A stretch of 6,926 bases of DNA. It comes from a virus (taxonomy: Duplodnaviria > Heunggongvirae > Uroviricota > Caudoviricetes). Both the position numbers and the translations under genes were made by a program. The first letter of the stretch is position 1. Each line of letters begins with the position of its first letter. Shown one piece after another: positions 537 to 6,926 of the stretch. The notes beneath the pieces are model-generated. The model saw only the letters and a list, made by a program, of their open reading frames with translations, was not told the origin of the DNA and did not search any database. The DNA lies in IMG/VR virus record IMGVR_UViG_2690316188_000015; one strand, written 5' to 3'.

Positions 537-720
537 TATTCCTCCCGGCCGGGATAGTGTATTAAATCAGATATGGAGTGGGCTGTAGTCCGGAAGCCTG
601 AATGACACACGGGGACTACAGCCCAAGAAATGAAAAAAGGCCACGCAGTTGCGCAGCCTGATAAACCCTGGTTAAAATCCACACGATAACAACACAACAA
701 TATCAGTATCTCATGCTATT

Positions 721-746
721 GCCCGAACCCATTCGGGCATTTTTTA
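721..746 (+). terminator. Rho-independent terminator, plus-strand orientation
   Basis: Hairpin GCCCGAA-CCCA-TTCGGGC (721-738) followed by A then TTTTTT (740-745) on the plus strand. Confidence 0.5.
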
Positions 747-750
747 CCCA

Positions 751-778
751 TAAAAAATGCCCCTCCGGAGAGGGGCAT
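751..778 (-). terminator. Rho-independent terminator, minus-strand orientation, downstream of the TerB-like gene
   Basis: 9-bp stem ATGCCCCTC / GAGGGGCAT with CGGA loop (757-778), followed on the minus strand by TTTTTT. Confidence 0.6.
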
Positions 779-943
779 GTTTGCATGCACATTCTTTTTC
801 TTGCATGGTGCCGGGTGCCTCCCGGTGAATTCAGTATCAGCACCTGAATCCGCGATTATCCCATATACCTGGTTGCTGATCGCCCCTCCGCACAGGGGGA
901 TTCACCATGCAGAAGTGTTTTTAATAAACAGCAAACAAAAAAA

Positions 944-1884: not shown

Positions 1885-1960
1885 TGGTGGCCCTTGCTGG
1901 ATTTGAACCAGCGACCTGGCGATTATGAGTCGCTCGCTCTCACCACTGAGCTAAAGGGCC
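1885..1960 (-). tRNA. ileZ: tRNA with CAU anticodon, ileX/ileZ-like (tRNA-Ile2 reading AUA after lysidine modification; formally a Met anticodon), 76 nt
   Basis: Sequence GGCCCTTTAGCTCAGTGGTGAGAGCGAGCGACTCATAATCGCCAGGTCGCTGGTTCAAATCCAGCAAGGGCCACCA closely resembles E. coli tRNA-Ile2 as recalled; canonical cloverleaf with T-loop TTCAAAT. Confidence 0.8.
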
Positions 1961-1988
1961 GAGCCAAAAAATAATAATCAGATGAAAA

Positions 1989-2702
1989 TCAATAATCAAG
2001 CCCTTGCCTGGATACATATCTGTCTGGCGGGAAGCCATAATAGCGGTGAAATACAGAAATAAAGTAGGACCTGCTTGAATAACCGCATTTTTCTGCTATA
2101 GCCTGTCCATATCCATGCCGGGAACATAACATATTTACAGCAACACGCATCCGCTCTTCCAGCAACAAGCGACTGAACATGCCCCCTTCATTTTTCAGTT
2201 TTGTCTTTAACAAACTCTCACTCATATGCAACTGTAGAGCAATCGCACCAAGCGTCCAGCTTGCTGATATATCTGTCTGAATTATCGCCCTGACTTTGGC
2301 ACTTATGCTGGATAAACATCCACTTAAAAACAATGACATCCGTTCATCTGTTTCAAACAGAGACAGGCAGGCCATCATAAGAAACATATCCGTGGCCTCT
2401 CCGGAAAATCCCTGGCTGGTAATTAAAGCCGCAGCCAACGCAGGATTGTTGGGTTCCAGCAACAGGTAAAGCGGAATGTCAGTCAGACGAGTCCTCGTCA
2501 GCTTATGCTGACTTTCCAGATATTGACTTACGACGGATTCGCTTATATCGACAATTTTAACTTTGCCATAATGCATAAGGAAAAGCTCCCTGATGCATTT
2601 GGTGGCCAGAACAACTGAGCCTGGCTTAAGTGACAACGTATCCTTTTCAAGAAAAATATTAATTGGGGAGCAAACCATGATAACTGAACAGACAACAGCC
2701 AT
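1989..2702 (-). CDS. AraC/XylS-family transcriptional regulator (AppY/YdeO/GadX-like subfamily), 237 aa, intact copy
   Basis: C-terminal region has both AraC-type helix-turn-helix motifs (WTLGAIALQLHMSESLLKTKLKNEGG... and AIAEKCGYSSRSYFISVFHRYYGFPP). N-terminus MAVVCSV resembles AppY-type regulators. Low GC. Confidence 0.85.
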   Translation of the reverse strand: MAVVCSVIMVCSPINIFLEKDTLSLKPGSVVLATKCIRELFLMHYGKVKIVDISESVVSQYLESQHKLTRTRLTDIPLYLLLEPNNPALAAALITSQGFSGEATDMFLMMACLSLFETDERMSLFLSGCLSSISAKVRAIIQTDISASWTLGAIALQLHMSESLLKTKLKNEGGMFSRLLLEERMRVAVNMLCSRHGYGQAIAEKCGYSSRSYFISVFHRYYGFPPDRYVSRQGLDY

Positions 2703-2737
2703 TATAATTTTACTTTCATTAGCAATTGGTTAGCTCA

Positions 2738-2768
2738 ATTATAGCCCCAAAAGGTAAATTATCATCAA
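2738..2768 (-). promoter_or_regulatory. Possible sigma70 promoter for the AraC-family gene: -35 TTGATG, 19-bp spacer, -10 TATAAT
   Basis: Perfect TATAAT on the minus strand about 36 nt upstream of the ATG. The -35 is weak and the spacer is long. An identical copy lies at 4129-4159 upstream of the truncated paralog. Confidence 0.3.
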
Positions 2769-2821
2769 CACATAAGCAAAGGACTGACAGGTGTCGCCCC
2801 CCCACCAGCCGCCCATTCACC

Positions 2822-2850
2822 ACAAATAAAAAGCCTTCAGGACTGAAGGC
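2822..2850 (-). terminator. Rho-independent terminator overlapping the stop codon of the 65-aa ORF
   Basis: Minus strand reads GCCTTCA-GTCC-TGAAGGC followed by TTTTTATTT. Confidence 0.6.
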
Positions 2851-3034
2851 GTCTGTAACAACCGCACTGATAGTCTGCCAGACCCGCCATAACAAGCTGG
2901 GTCAGTATTAACTGGCAGCGTTCGCGTGAAAGGTAAGTATTCTGCGCAATCTCCCCGACTGTCGCCGGTTCGGTAACGCTTAATTCATCAAACACAACTC
3001 TGGCGGTTTCTGTCATATCCTGCTGTTTCAGCAT
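2837..3034 (-). CDS. Small hypothetical protein (65 aa, or 59 aa from the second ATG), possible helix-turn-helix DNA-binding protein; copy A
   Basis: ORF with AAGGG about 9 nt upstream of the ATG. The only difference from copy B in this ORF is a synonymous change (GTT vs GTC Val at codon 20). Segment TVGEIAQNTYLSRERCQLILTQL is HTH-like. Function unknown. Confidence 0.5.
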   Translation of the reverse strand: MLKQQDMTETARVVFDELSVTEPATVGEIAQNTYLSRERCQLILTQLVMAGLADYQCGCYRRLQS

Positions 3035-3158
3035 GTCTTTTTACCCTTTCCGGTTAACGTGACATACCAATAACTCTTGTCTAAAAAGCCAGCAAGATAA
3101 AAAGCCAGTATTCACGACCACCAGCGTGTTTACTGTACTGCACCAGGTTTACAGGTAC

Positions 3159-3180
3159 AAAAAAACCGCTCAGCGGCGGG
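3159..3180 (-). terminator. Weak candidate terminator in the tail of repeat copy A
   Basis: Minus strand has a short CCGC/GCGG stem followed by TTTTTTT. The homologous site in copy B has a 5-bp stem. Confidence 0.35.
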
Positions 3181-3312
3181 TTTAAGTTGTGTGGCGAAGT
3201 AACCACTCTTAACACACTAATAGCATTTTTGTTATAACACAAGTAGCTCATTCAGTATTTTTAGAATCTTGACTTTCTTAAGCACGGAGAACTCTGAATA
3301 CCAAACATAAAA

Positions 3313-3546
3313 TCAATTATCTTCCAGGCCGGATGCTATCAACGAAAGCCTCTCAAAAAACGCTGTAGCAGCCTTGTCCAAAGTTGAATAAGTACTGTAT
3401 TCTCCGTGTTCGGGACCAACCACTACCCATGGTCGTCTTTTTGGGATTCGGGACTTCTCAGAAATCACTGTTCCAGATATACCAATATCAATTGTTACAC
3501 CTGTTATTATTTTCTCTTCATCTCTTTCCCTGAACTCAATTGCCAT
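3313..3546 (-). CDS. Hypothetical 77-aa ORF in the unique segment between the two repeat copies; possibly a gene remnant
   Basis: ORF-track ORF starting 19 bp inside the unique segment. No Shine-Dalgarno (A-rich upstream). No family recognised. Confidence 0.25.
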   Translation of the reverse strand: MAIEFRERDEEKIITGVTIDIGISGTVISEKSRIPKRRPWVVVGPEHGEYSTYSTLDKAATAFFERLSLIASGLEDN

Positions 3547-4093
3547 AAATGCCGTTTTTTTTTATGAACATGCCCCCTTCATTTTTCAGTTTTGTCTTTA
3601 ACAAACTCTCACTCATATGCAACTGTAGAGCAATCGCACCAAGCGTCCAGCTTGCTGATATATCTGTCTGAATTATCGCCCTGACTTTGGCACTTATGCT
3701 GGATAAACATCCACTTAAAAACAATGACATCCGTTCATCTGTTTCAAACAGAGACAGGCAGGCCATCATAAGAAACATATCCGTGGCCTCTCCGGAAAAT
3801 CCCTGGCTGGTAATTAAAGCCGCAGCCAACGCAGGATTGTTGGGTTCCAGCAACAGGTAAAGCGGAATGTCAGTCAGACGAGTCCTCGTCAGCTTATGCT
3901 GACTTTCCAGATATTGACTTACGACGGATTCGCTTATATCGACAATTTTAACTTTGCCATAATGCATAAGGAAAAGCTCCCTGATGCATTTGGTGGCCAG
4001 AACAACTGAGCCTGGCTTAAGTGACAACGTATCCTTTTCAAGAAAAATATTAATTGGGGAGCAAACCATGATAACTGAACAGACAACAGCCAT
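3536..4093 (-). pseudogene. Truncated paralog of the AraC-family regulator: N-terminal domain plus first HTH, residues 1-176 identical to copy A, then 9 unrelated codons and a stop
   Basis: Identical to copy A through ...KLKNEGGMF, then diverges exactly at the repeat boundary (3565) into IKKNGIYGN-stop. The second HTH is missing. Confidence 0.7.
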
Positions 4094-4212
4094 TATAATT
4101 TTACTTTCATTAGCAATTGGTTAGCTCAATTATAGCCCCAAAAGGTAAATTATCATCAACACATAAGCAAAGGACTGACAGGTGTCGCCCCCCCACCAGC
4201 CGCCCATTCACC

Positions 4213-4241
4213 ACAAATAAAAAGCCTTCAGGACTGAAGGC
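4213..4241 (-). terminator. Rho-independent terminator after the 65-aa ORF, copy B
   Basis: Identical to the terminator at 2822-2850. Confidence 0.6.
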
Positions 4242-4425
4242 GTCTGTAACAACCGCACTGATAGTCTGCCAGACCCGCCATAACAAGCTGGGTCAGTATT
4301 AACTGGCAGCGTTCGCGTGAAAGGTAAGTATTCTGCGCAATCTCCCCGACTGTCGCCGGTTCGGTGACGCTTAATTCATCAAACACAACTCTGGCGGTTT
4401 CTGTCATATCCTGCTGTTTCAGCAT
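4228..4425 (-). CDS. Small hypothetical protein (65 aa), copy B; protein identical to copy A
   Basis: Same ORF as 2837-3034 within the duplicated core. Confidence 0.5.
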   Translation of the reverse strand: MLKQQDMTETARVVFDELSVTEPATVGEIAQNTYLSRERCQLILTQLVMAGLADYQCGCYRRLQS

Positions 4426-4548
4426 GTCTTTTTACCCTTTCCGGTTAACGTGACACACCAATAACTCTTGCCGAAAAAGCCAGCAAGCTGAAAGACCTGT
4501 ATTAATAACTACCAGCACATTTAACGCACTGCGCTACTTTGCGGGCAC

Positions 4549-4571
4549 AAAAAACCCGCTCAGAGGCGGGG
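4549..4571 (-). terminator. Candidate rho-independent terminator between the CPBP gene and repeat copy B
   Basis: Minus strand reads CCCGC-CTCTGA-GCGGG followed by TTTTTTG, about 150 nt downstream of the CPBP stop. Confidence 0.5.
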
Positions 4572-4711
4572 TCAAGCTATGCGGCGAAATAACCACTCTT
4601 AACAGCATACCTGATTTTTTACGTACGTAAATGCTTTGCCGTGCATATTTTTCATGCAAATGTCACGTCCTGCTATTTTTCAGTCTTATAAATTTAAAAC
4701 CATAGAAAAAA

Positions 4712-5530
4712 TCAATTATGTTTTAAAAATGGATAGGTAAAGAATAACAAGTGACACAGATTCAAACCAAAATGGAAAAGGGTGGCAACCCACAAACGCC
4801 CACTCCACATCCATGACAATCCATACACAACACCAGATAACGTGGCAAATAATACAAGTAAAGCACCACCTGAATAGTGATAAAAACCAAACAACAAAGC
4901 CGCCACAATTAATGCAACCAATGGAGACGTTACTTCTGATAGCCGTGATTGAATATACCCTCTAAATAATGATTCCTCTGCCAGAGACACAAAAAACAAA
5001 TTAGCCAATATAAACTCTGGCAACCACTCAGGAAAATGAATCTCTGGCTTTAATCCACCAAAAAAAACAGCCAAAAACAGGATAAGAGGAACAGAGAGCG
5101 ACAGAGCCCCCCACTTCCACAAAGACACTTCTGATTTTACTTCTTTTTTAAACAAAGAAGATGTACACAGGACTAACAAAAATGGCACCAGCGCTTTATC
5201 AAAATTAAAATACATTGTATAGGGAGTACTTTGAGGGCCAACAGTAACAGAATTTAGCACTACAGGATTGTGAAACCCTGGCCATAGATGGAAAGATAAT
5301 GCTATGGCTGATAAAACTATGCCAACTTCATATATAGATTTAGCCCAGGCGTTATATTTCCAGTTGAACTTCAAAATAATAAAAAAAACGATTGTAGCAA
5401 CAAAAAATAACACCGACCAATCAATAATATCATTAAGCACAGCCAGGACAACAGACACCGTCAACAATGAAAAAGCCACTACCTTATGCCAACTGAGAGT
5501 TGACAGTGACAGTACTAACACAATCCACAT
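4712..5530 (-). CDS. CPBP-family (CAAX protease / Abi-domain, PF02517-like) intramembrane metalloprotease, about 272 aa
   Basis: ATG at 5530-5528 with AGGAG and a 5-nt spacer (the ORF-track GTG at 5536 is rejected). Polytopic hydrophobic protein with all three CPBP motifs: EESLFR (EExxxR), FGFYH (FxxxH) and HFGLN (HxxxN). Low GC, roughly 38% by eye. Confidence 0.8.
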   Translation of the reverse strand: MWIVLVLSLSTLSWHKVVAFSLLTVSVVLAVLNDIIDWSVLFFVATIVFFIILKFNWKYNAWAKSIYEVGIVLSAIALSFHLWPGFHNPVVLNSVTVGPQSTPYTMYFNFDKALVPFLLVLCTSSLFKKEVKSEVSLWKWGALSLSVPLILFLAVFFGGLKPEIHFPEWLPEFILANLFFVSLAEESLFRGYIQSRLSEVTSPLVALIVAALLFGFYHYSGGALLVLFATLSGVVYGLSWMWSGRLWVATLFHFGLNLCHLLFFTYPFLKHN

Positions 5531-5681
5531 AAGCACTCCTTTTATTTAATGATGAAGATTGATTATCAATATTTTCAATTCACCAGGCAACATTTTATCT
5601 ACCTTCCACAATACATGACCATCAAAAAATAAACATGTTAATTATAAACACAGAAAACATAACCCTCATCACTATATATCC
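5531..5681 (-). promoter_or_regulatory. AT-rich region immediately downstream of Q; expected location of the Q-dependent late promoter and Q-utilisation site
   Basis: Positional inference from lambdoid phage organisation. Several -10-like hexamers are present (TATAAT, TAAAAT) but no element could be assigned confidently. Confidence 0.3.
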
Positions 5682-6053
5682 CTACCGCATATCCATATCT
5701 AACCGGACATTCAGAGCCATAAGCATTCCTTCAATAATACCTTCCGCTTTATAAAGCCTTTTACCAATAAGCCCATCAGAACATCTATGCTTACGTGCAA
5801 GAGCCATAAATGTCATTCCACCTACGTAATAATCCACCAACAAATCGTGCAAATACTGATTATTCTTGTTTAATCGTGCCATACAACCACAAATTATCAT
5901 GGCGTCATCATCAGAACACTGAGGACGTGATTTCACTTTAGTCGGGATTAATCCTTTAAAACCAGCAGCTATCGAGGGCCATGTTACATCTTCATGATTA
6001 TTTGCTGCCCATGCCCCCCATCGCTCAAGAACCATCTGGATATCACGCGCCAT
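5682..6053 (-). CDS. Q: Late-gene antiterminator Q (QuuD/phage-82-type), 123 aa from the ATG
   Basis: Protein [25 protein letters not shown]...[14 protein letters not shown]... closely resembles E. coli prophage QuuD-type Q as recalled. GAGGTGG Shine-Dalgarno before the ATG at 6053; start overlaps the end of rusA. Confidence 0.85.
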
Positions 6054-6414
6054 CGTTACCACCTCTGATTTCGTAAATCTTCACGCCCAGCCGTCCACCT
6101 GGCACAGGCTGACCGCGCACAATATTGATTTCATCAAACTGCTCGTCATCAATGAGCACTTCCGCATGCGTCAGCGCATCCAGCGGTGCTTTCAGAATGT
6201 TGTCCAGGTCACGGCGGCGCTTATCCGGTGGTTCTGCAATAATTTTTATTGCCAGCCGTCCGGACAGGCTTAATTTCAGCCGCTGCTGGCGAACAATAAG
6301 CGCCACAGCCCGGCGATAACGCTCACCGGCTTTTGATACAAAATATGTGCTGCCACGACGTCGCCAGTAGGTGTTCACCGTCGGCGGGTAAGGCAAAACA
6401 AACTCTATACGCAT
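6043..6414 (-). CDS. rusA: RusA-family Holliday-junction resolvase, 123 aa
   Basis: AAGAGG Shine-Dalgarno 6 nt before the ATG at 6414. Motifs [19 protein letters not shown] and GGRLGV match the RusA family (compare DLP12 RusA ...PDRRRRDLDNLQKAAFDAL...). Position immediately upstream of Q is typical. Confidence 0.85.
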
Positions 6415-6426
6415 CAGTAACCTCTT

Positions 6427-6926
6427 TTACCCGAGCACGCCGGTTGCAAAAGCGTGATCAAGAAAACGAAAAATTAAATCAACCTGGGAACCATGCTTTT
6501 CTTCGAACGCCAGCGGATCCGCATGAAGCTCGTTGTGATGCTCCCGACACAGCGGTAGCGTGAAAATATCGTGGGATTTTGTTCCCATTCCACCCTGACC
6601 ATGACCAATCAGATGATGAGGATCGTCCGCTGGCTTACCACAACACGCACACGGCTGTGTCTTTACCCAGCGTGTGTATTTCTCATTTACCCAGCGGCGA
6701 CGTTTAGGTCGTTTCATGAAGGATTCCGGAGACTCCGGATCAACGGCAATGCTGACCACCGTCTTTTCCTGTGGTGGGTTCTGTTGCTGGTGGGTGTGAG
6801 GCGGTAGCGCAATATTTTTTGTGCGCTGCTTCAGTATGCTGGTGGCGGTCTGTTCTCCCGGTATGATGTCGCTTTCACGGTATACGGAGCGGATTTTTTC
6901 CGCCGGTAATCCCAGAGAACGACGCG
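6427..6926 (-). CDS. DUF968-like protein with HNH-like Cys/His cluster; partial, 5' end beyond window
   Basis: The reading frame is open from the window edge (6926) to the stop at 6427. The ORF-track GTG at 6759 is only the first in-window start codon. Motif CACCGKPADDPHHLIGHG...CREHHNELH is present. Confidence 0.65.
   Translation of the reverse strand, partial: RRSLGLPAEKIRSVYRESDIIPGEQTATSILKQRTKNIALPPHTHQQQNPPQEKTVVSIAVDPESPESFMKRPKRRRWVNEKYTRWVKTQPCACCGKPADDPHHLIGHGQGGMGTKSHDIFTLPLCREHHNELHADPLAFEEKHGSQVDLIFRFLDHAFATGVLG

What the first reader, a model, noticed from the sequence alone, without database searches (positions are those of the whole stretch)
2822..3110. Duplicated 65-aa ORF flanked by its own terminator and an upstream region with 11-bp direct repeats
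Both copies encode the same 65-aa protein. The only nucleotide difference inside the ORF is synonymous, which fits a real coding sequence but is a single site. The stop codon is embedded in a terminator hairpin. In copy A the upstream tail carries two perfect copies of TAAAAAGCCAG (3082-3092 and 3098-3108); in copy B only one copy (4473-4483) is intact. The protein has an HTH-like segment and could be a small regulator working with the AraC-family protein, but no family was recognised.
Basis: partly seen in the sequence, partly recalled or inferred. Interest (0 to 1): 0.45.

Follow-up and report, generated by a model that had tools for sequence, protein, structure and literature searches.

The report
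Small winged-helix gene of lambdoid prophages
The duplicated 65-aa ORF is a real, conserved lambdoid-phage gene for a tiny winged-helix protein whose usual downstream neighbour is a non-specific DNA methyltransferase, not the AraC-type regulator beside it here, and the duplication is a one-off rearrangement.

Summary
Two copies (2837-3034 and 4228-4425, minus strand) encode the same 65-aa protein with one synonymous difference. The stop codon lies in a terminator hairpin, and copy A has two perfect 11-mers upstream.

The ORF is a genuine gene: median dN/dS is 0.12 across 30 loci, and the AlphaFold model is a confident minimal winged helix. It belongs to an uncharacterised family (phrog_331; SfV orf47, phiP27 L23, Sakai ECs_1086) that RefSeq calls "hypothetical" or "TrmB family".

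In every other genus sampled, the ORF sits after Q and a terminator, 142-154 nt upstream of an M.EcoGII-type DNA methyltransferase. A conserved, covarying RNA leader fills that gap.

In this window a Psr-type AraC cassette with its own promoter-like site has replaced the distal leader and the methyltransferase. The 11-mer repeat is unique to copy A. In Sakai, the copy beside psrA is frameshifted. The "AraC partner with repeat operators" reading is therefore poorly supported.

The duplication is a private, non-homologous junction (3564/3565) between two prophage backgrounds.

The most likely function, by inference only, is a nucleic-acid-binding controller of the downstream late gene.

The parts
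2837..3034 (-). Small ORF, copy A (65 aa, minimal winged helix; identical to RefSeq WP_000917737.1)
4228..4425 (-). Small ORF, copy B (same 65-aa protein; one synonymous difference, 4366 G versus 2975 A)
2823..2850 (-). Stop-codon hairpin plus T-run (intrinsic-terminator-like), copy A; the TGA lies in the 3' arm
4214..4241 (-). Stop-codon hairpin plus T-run, copy B
2766..2822 (-). Remnant of the conserved leader (GTGAATGGGCGGCTGG box and first long hairpin, about 2775-2821), copy A; homology to methyltransferase-type loci ends near 2766
4157..4213 (-). Same leader remnant, copy B
3035..3096 (-). Conserved 5' region of copy A: TTGCTG box (3090-3095), AGAGTTA box (3071-3077), GTATGTC box (3061-3067) and a GG-rich ribosome-binding site
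4426..4487 (-). Conserved 5' region of copy B
3082..3108 (+). Two perfect TAAAAAGCCAG copies (3082-3092 and 3098-3108). The copy nearer the ORF overlaps the conserved TTGCTG box; the farther copy is lineage-specific
3148..3214 (-). Upstream element ending in an intrinsic terminator (stem 3165-3177 plus T7), copy A; probably the late terminator (tR'-type), by inference
4538..4604 (-). Upstream terminator element, copy B (stem 4555-4570 plus T6), 84% identical to copy A
1989..2702 (-). Full-length Psr-type AraC-like regulator (237 aa), occupying the slot held by the methyltransferase elsewhere
2738..2765 (-). Promoter-like site of the AraC cassette (ATGATA-16-TATAAT, 10 of 12); a second copy lies at 4129-4156
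3536..4093 (-). AraC-like gene copy lacking its 3' end (homologous part 3565-4093), fused in frame to foreign sequence at the junction
3555..3565 (.). Duplication junction: T9 run, one A, then the sequence re-enters the AraC gene at the equivalent of position 2174

Best explanation
SHOWN.
- The 65-aa ORF is a real protein-coding gene of lambdoid phages, encoding a minimal winged-helix protein (H1, beta, H2, H3, beta-hairpin wing).
- It belongs to a narrow, uncharacterised enterobacterial phage family: phrog_331, SfV orf47, phiP27 L23, Sakai ECs_1086.
- Its conserved place is downstream of the Q antiterminator and an intrinsic terminator. There it is the upstream gene of a two-gene module whose second gene is an N6_N4 DNA methyltransferase of the M.EcoGII type (non-specific for adenine, toxic, silent in lysogens).
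- The two genes are separated by about 150 nt of highly conserved, covarying structured leader that begins with a hairpin over the small ORF's stop codon.
- In the window's lineage a Psr-type AraC cassette (about 1961-2765) with its own promoter-like site replaced the distal leader and the methyltransferase. The small ORF, its stop-codon terminator and the first leader hairpin were left in place.
- The duplication is one non-homologous junction (3564/3565). It joins an L001-type prophage segment to an Sp4-type segment and is not found anywhere else.

INFERRED (mechanism).
- The small protein is made mainly from the Q-antiterminated late transcript, because its 5' region is a poor sigma-70 promoter and follows a terminator.
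- It acts as a sequence-specific nucleic-acid-binding controller of its own module. It would bind an invariant box in the leader or the 5' region, as DNA or RNA, to set how much transcription or translation passes the stop-codon terminator and leader into the downstream gene. This resembles how controller proteins time restriction-modification genes.
- Next to psr it is a carried-over upstream gene, not a dedicated Psr partner.
For: Coding and fold:
- Median pairwise dN/dS is 0.12 over 248 pairs. dN is about 0.1 where dS is saturated between genera.
- All sampled AraC-linked copies except Sakai's are intact, and 11 of 16 polymorphic codons are synonymous only.
- The AlphaFold2 model has pLDDT 91.8 and a winged-helix topology. 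Pfam gives only sub-threshold winged-helix hits. Foldseek returns MarR/OhrR, IclR, ArsR, TrmB N-terminal and Z-alpha-like domains.
- Invariant residues R39, C40, Q41, I43-Q46 lie in helix 3, and K/R61-R62 in the wing.

Family and context:
- phrog_331 matches at 6e-37.
- 295 homologues were found, all enterobacterial. Only 61 representatives appear among 1.84 billion proteins.
- The layout Q, terminator, ORF, ~150 nt, methyltransferase holds in SfV, phiP27, mEp460, Stx2a_1447 and 1720a-02, and in 26 species-level loci.
- The partner is PF01555 at 1.1e-43. The M.EcoGII paper cites the 1720a-02 enzyme as very similar, and reports toxicity and silence in the lysogen.

Leader and hairpin:
- Alignments A2 and A3.
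- 94% of cells are paired, against 23-46% when the partners are slid. 11 pairs change on both sides, against 6.1 +/- 1.6 in shuffles; 0 of 500 shuffles reach the observed value.
- The stop-codon hairpin is present in 26 of 30 loci.

Cassette:
- Boundaries come; the promoter-like site.
- The protein is 90.7% identical to ECs_1087 (psrA).

Duplication:
- Window 1901-3563 is 100% identical to L001, and 3565-6926 is 98.3% identical to Sp4.
- The junction is absent from 5,426 E. coli genomes and from the metagenome and viral collections.
Against: - No binding, expression or phenotype data exist for any family member, and no literature was found under ecs1086 or z1788.
- The family is mildly acidic to neutral (median net charge -1, pI 5.6), which is not typical of a 65-aa DNA binder.
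- No conserved inverted repeat (operator) was found.
- Fold matches are generic, none at E <= 1e-3, and they include non-DNA-binding winged helices such as the dimerisation domains of O-methyltransferases.
- Single-sequence folding energies are unremarkable (z = -0.5 to -2.0), so the structures rest on covariation alone.
- Calling the upstream terminator tR' is an inference from position and from SfV's annotation.
- Persistence of intact copies in AraC-linked loci could come from recombination with methyltransferase-linked copies in the same genomes, rather than from selection in place.
Confidence: 0.55

Rival explanations
1. One reading: the small protein is a co-regulator that works with the adjacent AraC/Psr regulator, and the 11-bp direct repeats are its, or the AraC protein's, binding sites.
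For: The ORF is adjacent to the AraC-like gene on the same strand in the window and in 697 E. coli genomes. It has a winged-helix fold. The 11-mers are more frequent than chance in this window. The ORF is intact in 8 of 9 sampled AraC-linked copies.
Against: - The conserved partner outside this lineage is always a methyltransferase.
- A terminator and a separate promoter-like site lie between the ORF and the AraC gene.
- The tandem 11-mer is unique to copy A among 30 loci, and copy B has only one imperfect copy.
- ECs_1086 beside psrA in Sakai is frameshifted. Sakai is the strain in which psrA responses were reported.
Confidence: 0.08
2. The small protein is a protein-protein partner of the methyltransferase, for example restraining, dimerising or targeting the promiscuous enzyme. 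Next to psr it would be a functionless leftover.
For: - Strict synteny with the methyltransferase at a fixed spacing.
- An acidic to neutral charge.
- The top Foldseek hits include winged-helix dimerisation domains of SAM-dependent methyltransferases.
- The enzyme is toxic and needs restraint.
Against: - M.EcoGII is fully active alone, in vivo and in vitro, so the small protein is not an essential subunit.
- No fusion of the two domains was found.
- The ORF remains intact, with mostly synonymous variation, in AraC-linked loci.
- The invariant polar and basic residues on helix 3 and the wing look like a nucleic-acid-binding surface.
Confidence: 0.2
3. The ORF matters only as a translated leader: ribosomes reaching the stop codon inside the hairpin modulate termination (attenuation), and the peptide itself has no function.
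For: The stop codon lies in or next to a covarying hairpin in 26 of 30 loci. A possible stem sequesters the start codon.
Against: dN/dS of 0.12, a confident globular fold and an invariant helix 3 are not expected for a mere leader peptide. The hairpin is absent in Proteus and Providencia, where the protein is still conserved. A dual role is not excluded.
Confidence: 0.07
4. The duplication itself is an assembly or cloning chimera and not a biological rearrangement; the source genome has two separate prophages, each with one copy.
For: - The junction is unique in all collections searched.
- The two sides match two different prophage types that coexist in EHEC genomes.
- The junction follows a T9 homopolymer.
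Against: Assembly errors normally switch inside shared repeats, whereas this junction joins non-homologous sequence: the T9 run of a phrog_8498-type gene to the middle of the AraC gene. A single illegitimate crossover between two prophages explains it equally well.
Confidence: 0.25

Closest known systems
phrog_331 family: SfV orf47 (NP_599079), phiP27 L23 (NP_543075), Sakai ECs_1086, RefSeq WP_000917737.1 ('hypothetical protein' or 'TrmB family transcriptional regulator')
   Same: Same protein family: the window protein is identical to WP_000917737.1 and 92-97% identical to the phage proteins. Same size and same position downstream of Q.
   Different: In SfV, phiP27 and most loci the next gene is a DNA methyltransferase; here it is a Psr-type AraC regulator. 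Here the gene is also duplicated. No member has a demonstrated function.
Controller (C) proteins of restriction-modification systems (e.g. C.PvuII, C.AhdI) (comparison from general knowledge)
   Same: A small helix-turn-helix protein encoded immediately upstream of a gene for a potentially toxic DNA-modifying enzyme, in a position to time or limit its expression.
   Different: C proteins are Xre-type HTH dimers that bind palindromic C-boxes and usually control the endonuclease. This is a winged helix, no palindromic operator was found, and the partner is an orphan non-specific methyltransferase behind a structured RNA leader.
M.EcoGII / M.EcoGI prophage methyltransferase locus (PMC5778455)
   Same: The ancestral partner gene of this ORF family is of this type. 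Phage 1720a-02, cited in that paper, has the ORF 150 nt upstream of its methyltransferase.
   Different: The window has lost the methyltransferase. The word 'upstream' does not occur in the paper's main text, so it does not mention an upstream ORF or leader in those terms.
PsrA / PsrB / PatE prophage AraC-like regulators of EHEC (PMC10877973; psrA = ECs1087, PMC13502914)
   Same: The neighbouring 237-aa gene is 90.7% identical to ECs_1087 and lies in the same Sp4-type gene order (Q, CPBP, small ORF, AraC, ileZ-argN-argO).
   Different: This concerns the neighbour, not the ORF. No link between the Psr proteins and the small ORF was seen in the passages read from these two papers.
MarR / TrmB / ArsR winged-helix transcription factors
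   Same: Same core fold (TM-score 0.8 to OhrR).
   Different: All Pfam scores are below the curated thresholds. The protein lacks the dimerisation helices of MarR and the sugar-binding domain of TrmB, and is only 65 aa.

Membership tests
phrog_331 / SfV orf47 - phiP27 L23 - ECs_1086 family | Significant sequence similarity over the whole protein | tested here: met
   phrog_331 at 6e-37; 92-97% identity to phage proteins; identical to WP_000917737.1
phrog_331 / SfV orf47 - phiP27 L23 - ECs_1086 family | Position downstream of Q and a terminator, upstream of the late cargo and lysis genes | tested here: met
Winged helix-turn-helix fold | H1, beta, H2, H3 (recognition helix), then a beta-hairpin wing | tested here: met
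   AlphaFold2 pLDDT 91.8; H9-17, H26-33, H37-49, E53-56, E59-62; TM-score 0.81 to OhrR
TrmB family (PF01978), the name used by NCBI | Score at or above Pfam's gathering threshold | tested here: not met
   17.8 bits against a cut-off of 25.6; no NCBIfam hit
TrmB family (PF01978), the name used by NCBI | C-terminal effector (sugar-binding) domain of full-length TrmB (general knowledge) | tested here: not met
   The protein is 65 aa and consists of the winged helix only
MarR family | Pfam MarR/MarR_2 match above threshold, with flanking dimerisation helices | tested here: not met
   MarR_2 at 14.1 bits against a cut-off of 27; no extra helices in the model
R-M controller (C) proteins | Xre-type HTH domain (HTH_3 / HTH_31) | tested here: not met
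   No such Pfam hit even at E <= 1; the fold is a winged helix
R-M controller (C) proteins | Gene immediately upstream of the controlled modification or restriction gene | tested here: met
   True of the family, at 142-154 nt upstream of the methyltransferase in about 30 loci, but not of this window, where the methyltransferase is gone
R-M controller (C) proteins | Palindromic C-box operators upstream of its own gene | tested here: not met
   The conserved upstream boxes TTGCTG, AGAGTTA and GTATGTC are not inverted repeats
R-M controller (C) proteins | Autoregulation and delayed expression of the partner gene | not testable with these tools
   Needs reporter and binding assays
Intrinsic (rho-independent) terminator, at the stop codon | G+C-rich stem-loop followed by a T-run | tested here: met
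   7-bp stem with 4 GC pairs, then TTTTTATTTG; -10.5 to -11.2 kcal/mol; covarying arms
Intrinsic (rho-independent) terminator, at the stop codon | Termination activity in vivo | not testable with these tools
   Needs Term-seq or a reporter
M.EcoGII-type small-ORF / leader / methyltransferase module | N6_N4 methyltransferase about 150 nt downstream | tested here: not met
   In the window the downstream gene is AraC-like, at a gap of 134 nt
M.EcoGII-type small-ORF / leader / methyltransferase module | Conserved structured leader | tested here: inconclusive
   Only the first ~75 nt are retained (stop-codon hairpin, AATGGGCGGCTGG box, first stem); the rest is replaced
Psr / PatE AraC-like regulators (the neighbouring gene) | AraC-type HTH domain and high identity to PsrA (ECs_1087) | tested here: met
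   HTH_AraC at 2.4e-13; 90.7% identity over 237 aa to ECs_1087; psrA = ecs1087
HnrS prophage sRNA (considered for the upstream terminator element) | Perfect 15-nt complementarity to the 3' end of mazF | tested here: not met
   No match in the window or in any fetched locus

The most novel reading that the evidence does not exclude
The small winged-helix protein, the hairpin over its stop codon and the ~150-nt covarying leader that occludes the methyltransferase start codon together form an undescribed control module. This module would keep the toxic, non-specific M.EcoGII-type methyltransferase off in lysogens and release it at the right time in late lytic growth. The protein would bind the invariant leader box, possibly as RNA. 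In that reading the window shows the module's upstream half, re-used in front of a virulence and acid-resistance regulator (Psr).
Probability: 0.3. Interest if true: 0.55.

Novelty: new member of a known kind. Interest (0 to 1): 0.3.

Why it matters
For this window, the result mostly removes a tempting story: the small protein is not a dedicated AraC partner, and the repeats are not conserved operators.

The wider value is comparative. About 40% of complete E. coli genomes carry this gene, often in several prophages and including Stx2 phages. Its conserved link to the M.EcoGII-type methyltransferase through a structured leader suggests a way in which a promiscuous, toxic anti-restriction enzyme is kept silent and then switched on. 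The M.EcoGII paper raised that question without answering it.

The gene also lies on the late transcript upstream of stx2 in several Stx phages, so anything that modulates read-through here could affect toxin expression.

Tried and rejected
- Rfam on the window and on four methyltransferase-type loci: nothing covers the ORF, its flanks or the leader.
- PDB sequence search with the 65-aa protein: no hit at E <= 10.
- Foldseek against the PDB and BFVD: only generic winged helices, none at E <= 1e-3, and no informative fusion.
- The two long proteins that weakly matched in the representative search are unrelated repeat proteins.
- HnrS as the identity of the upstream terminator element: rejected, because there is no complementarity to the mazF 3' end.
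- StxS: the same architecture, but sequence identity could not be tested because no sequence was available.
- The conserved TTGCTG / AGAGTTA region as the late promoter pR' with the stop-codon hairpin as tR': disfavoured. It is conserved across at least three different Q types, and the spacer is identical in loci with different Q proteins. It is also a poor sigma-70 match and was not flagged by the scan.
- A sigma-70 promoter for the small ORF: not supported.
- Literature search by locus tags and accessions (ecs1086, z1788, WP_000917737 and others): nothing relevant.
- Junction search in E. coli genomes, metagenomes and viral contigs: absent.
- Single-sequence folding z-scores are weak, so they were not used as evidence.

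Full report
CONTEXT. The window is the late-regulatory ("moron") region of an E. coli lambdoid prophage, with nearly all genes on the minus strand. Read right to left, it contains:
- DUF968 (6427-6759), RusA (6043-6414) and antiterminator Q (5682-6062);
- a CPBP/Rce1-like protease (4712-5536);
- small ORF copy B (4228-4425);
- an AraC-like gene lacking its 3' end (3536-4093);
- a 77-aa gene fragment (3313-3546);
- small ORF copy A (2837-3034);
- a full-length AraC-like gene (1989-2702);
- three tRNAs (1709-1960);
- TerB and DUF3927.
The sRNA genes STnc100 (746-939, minus strand) and AgvB (684-745, plus strand) follow.

OBSERVATION.
- The two ORFs give the identical 65-aa protein. The single internal difference (2975 A versus 4366 G) is synonymous.
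- The near-identical block is 2174-3064 versus 3565-4455. Further upstream the copies drop to about 84% identity.
- The stop codon lies in the 3' arm of GCCTTCA-GTCC-TGAAGGC, followed by TTTTTATTTG.
- TAAAAAGCCAG is perfect at 3082 and 3098. The copy-B site at 4473-4483 has one mismatch, so it is not strictly intact. Three matches at one mismatch or fewer compare with 0.2 expected.

IS IT A GENE? Yes.
- Across 30 loci the median pairwise dN/dS is 0.12. dN stays near 0.1 where synonymous sites are saturated between genera.
- An AlphaFold2 model built on 16 homologues has mean pLDDT 91.8 and the topology H1, beta, H2, H3, beta-hairpin, which is a minimal winged helix.
- Pfam gives only sub-threshold winged-helix hits (TrmB at 17.8 bits against a cut-off of 25.6). 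NCBIfam gives nothing. PHROGs gives phrog_331, function unknown, at 6e-37.
- Foldseek against the PDB and viral models finds only generic winged helices, the best being OhrR at TM-score 0.81, with none at E <= 1e-3.
- The family is narrow: 295 homologues, all enterobacterial, and 61 representatives among 1.84 billion proteins.
- The protein is identical to RefSeq WP_000917737.1, annotated "hypothetical protein".
- Invariant residues cluster in helix 3 (R39, C40, Q41, I43-Q46), and the wing keeps K/R61-R62. Overall charge is slightly negative.

WHAT IT NORMALLY SITS NEXT TO. This is the main result.
- In Buttiauxella and Salmonella prophages, in phages SfV (orf47), phiP27 (L23), mEp460, Stx2a_1447 and 1720a-02, and in 26 species-level loci, the ORF lies downstream of Q. 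The species range from E. albertii to Proteus, Providencia and Plesiomonas.
- In every locus with enough downstream DNA it is followed at 142-154 nt by an N6_N4 DNA methyltransferase of 347-357 aa (PF01555, 1.1e-43). The one exception is the decayed Erwinia locus L027, where the ORF is frameshifted and the gap is 201 nt.
- The M.EcoGII paper describes this enzyme type as prophage-borne, non-specific for adenine, toxic and silent in the lysogen. It names the 1720a-02 enzyme as very similar. The word "upstream" does not occur in its main text.
- Among 5,426 complete E. coli genomes, about 2,140 carry the ORF, at up to 7 places each. 1,874 have the methyltransferase-linked form and 697 the AraC-linked form.

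FLANKING ELEMENTS.
(a) Upstream terminator. Every locus has an intrinsic terminator with lineage-specific but complementary arms, about 95-190 nt before the start codon. SfV's record annotates it, and in SfV it lies in the tR' position after Q. In the window these terminators are at 3165-3177 and 4555-4570, inside the 67-nt elements that are 84% alike. Reading them as tR'-type late terminators is an inference, consistent with what is known for StxS. They are not HnrS.
(b) 5' region. Between that terminator and the ATG, three boxes are conserved: TTGCTG (about -60), AGAGTTA (about -42) and GTATGTC (about -30). A GG-rich ribosome-binding site precedes M1. This is a poor sigma-70 promoter. GUAUGUC can pair with GACAUGC across the start codon, but the support is weak.
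(c) 11-mers. The copy nearer the ORF simply overlaps the TTGCTG box.
(d) Stop-codon hairpin. It is present in 26 of 30 loci (-7.7 to -14.3 kcal/mol), with arms that change together: GCCUUCA/UGAAGGC, GCCUCC/GGAGGC, CUCCGC/GCGGAG and GUCGCCA/UGGCGGC.
(e) Leader. Beyond the hairpin lies an invariant GTGAAAATGGGCGGCTGG box, a long covarying stem, and a long-range stem (GGUCACAAG with CUUACUGAUC) that abuts the methyltransferase AUG. On the named structure 94% of cells pair, against 23-46% in slid controls. 11 pairs change on both sides, against 6.1 +/- 1.6 in shuffles, and 0 of 500 shuffles reach that. Rfam has no such family.

THE AraC CASSETTE.
- The window shares only about 75 nt after the stop codon with methyltransferase-type loci. 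Homology ends at about 2766 and resumes only at the tRNA gene at 1960.
- The intervening DNA carries a promoter-like ATGATA-16-TATAAT site (2738-2765) and a 237-aa YdeO/GadX-like AraC protein.
- That protein is 90.7% identical to Sakai ECs_1087, which the literature equates with psrA. It is 98.7% identical to a second O157:H7 paralogue.
- Sakai prophage Sp4 shows the same gene order: Q, CPBP, ECs_1086, ECs_1087, then ileZ-argN-argO. There ECs_1086 matches the window protein for 49 residues and is then frameshifted.
- Other AraC-linked copies are intact, and 11 of 16 polymorphic codons are synonymous.

THE DUPLICATION.
- Window 1901-3563 is 100% identical to one E. coli prophage (L001). After a T9 run and one A, the sequence re-enters the AraC gene at the equivalent of 2174. 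It then continues as an Sp4-type prophage, 98.3% identical to Sakai.
- The junction is non-homologous. It is absent from 5,426 E. coli genomes, from the metagenome collection and from IMG/VR.
- It is therefore a private illegitimate recombination between two prophage backgrounds or, less likely, an assembly chimera.
- The "duplicated ORF" says nothing about function. The single synonymous difference reflects very recent common ancestry of the two copies.

MECHANISM.
Shown:
- a conserved winged-helix protein;
- fixed synteny with a toxic methyltransferase;
- a covarying stop-codon hairpin and leader;
- a cassette replacement in this lineage.
Inferred:
- The protein is produced from the Q-antiterminated late transcript.
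- It binds an invariant box in its own module, as DNA or RNA. In doing so it controls passage through the stop-codon terminator and leader into the downstream gene, in the manner of a controller protein.
- Beside psr it is carried-over upstream sequence.
Rivals:
- a protein-protein modulator of the methyltransferase, which cannot be an essential subunit because M.EcoGII is active alone;
- a pure leader ORF, contradicted by dN/dS and the fold;

COMPARISON AND NOVELTY.
- The protein is a member of phrog_331 and has the winged-helix fold. It is not a bona fide TrmB, MarR or C-protein family member, since the defining features were tested and not met.
- The gene is already present, unnamed, in thousands of public genomes. 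No literature was found for it.
- What appears undescribed is the module it belongs to: small winged-helix gene, structured leader, M.EcoGII-type methyltransferase.
- For this window the finding is largely ordinary: a catalogued hypothetical phage gene caught in a private rearrangement. I score interest at 0.3. If the control-module reading proves right, it would deserve more.

Noticed in passing
Loci L002-L036 and L044, between the small ORF and the methyltransferase (e.g. L008:3696-3844); remnant in the window at 2766-2822 and 4157-4213: A ~150-nt intergenic leader with invariant blocks, an invariant GTGAAAATGGGCGGCTGG box, a long covarying hairpin, and a long-range stem that pairs with the sequence abutting the methyltransferase AUG. 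No obvious Shine-Dalgarno sequence precedes that AUG. There is no Rfam family for it. It is a candidate cis-regulatory RNA for M.EcoGII-type methyltransferases.
   Followed up: partly
window 3148-3214 and 4538-4604 (minus strand): A promoter-like sequence, then a ~55-60-nt segment (TGTTAAGAGTGGTTAC...) and an intrinsic terminator, 84% alike in the two copies and shared with Stx2a_1447 and phiP27. This is the architecture of a short pR'-tR' transcript (StxS-like), and it could be an sRNA. It is not HnrS.
   Followed up: partly
window 684-745 (+) and 746-939 (-): A full-length AgvB anti-GcvB sRNA (96.5 bits) and STnc100 (142.7 bits) lie back to back, downstream of the TerB and DUF3927 genes.
   Followed up: no
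L045:28344-28583 (Sakai ECs_1086): The small ORF next to psrA in E. coli O157:H7 Sakai is frameshifted after residue 49 and is annotated as a 79-aa hypothetical protein. The wing is lost.
   Followed up: partly
window 3313-3563; L001:5354-5972: The 77-aa ORF is the C-terminal part of a phrog_8498 protein (205-aa profile). In L001 the gene is split into two overlapping ORFs around a T9 homopolymer, one of them annotated 'WYL domain-containing'. The same T9 run is the left edge of the duplication junction, so this may be a frameshift-prone or slippage-prone site.
   Followed up: partly
window 3536-4093 (minus strand): The truncated Psr-type copy keeps its promoter-like site (4129-4156), the N-terminal ~176 residues and part of the first HTH, and reads on into foreign sequence (185 aa). 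If expressed, it could be an inactive or interfering fragment.
   Followed up: no
window 3031-3037 with 3061-3067 (and the copy-B equivalents): The conserved GUAUGUC box can pair with GACAUGC across the small ORF's start codon. RNAalifold predicts 7 pairs, 2 of them with compensatory changes, at weak energy. This is a possible translational control of the small ORF itself.
   Followed up: partly
window 1885-1960 (minus strand): ARAGORN calls this tRNA 'Met' (anticodon CAT), whereas Sakai annotates the homologous gene as ileZ (tRNA-Ile, anticodon cat). RefSeq records are split between tRNA-Ile and tRNA-Met for the same gene.
   Followed up: no
L027:4001-4345 (Erwinia tracheiphila): Here the small ORF has lost its stop codon and hairpin and reads on to 114 aa. 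The methyltransferase ORF is shortened to 281 aa. The module appears to be decaying as a unit.
   Followed up: no
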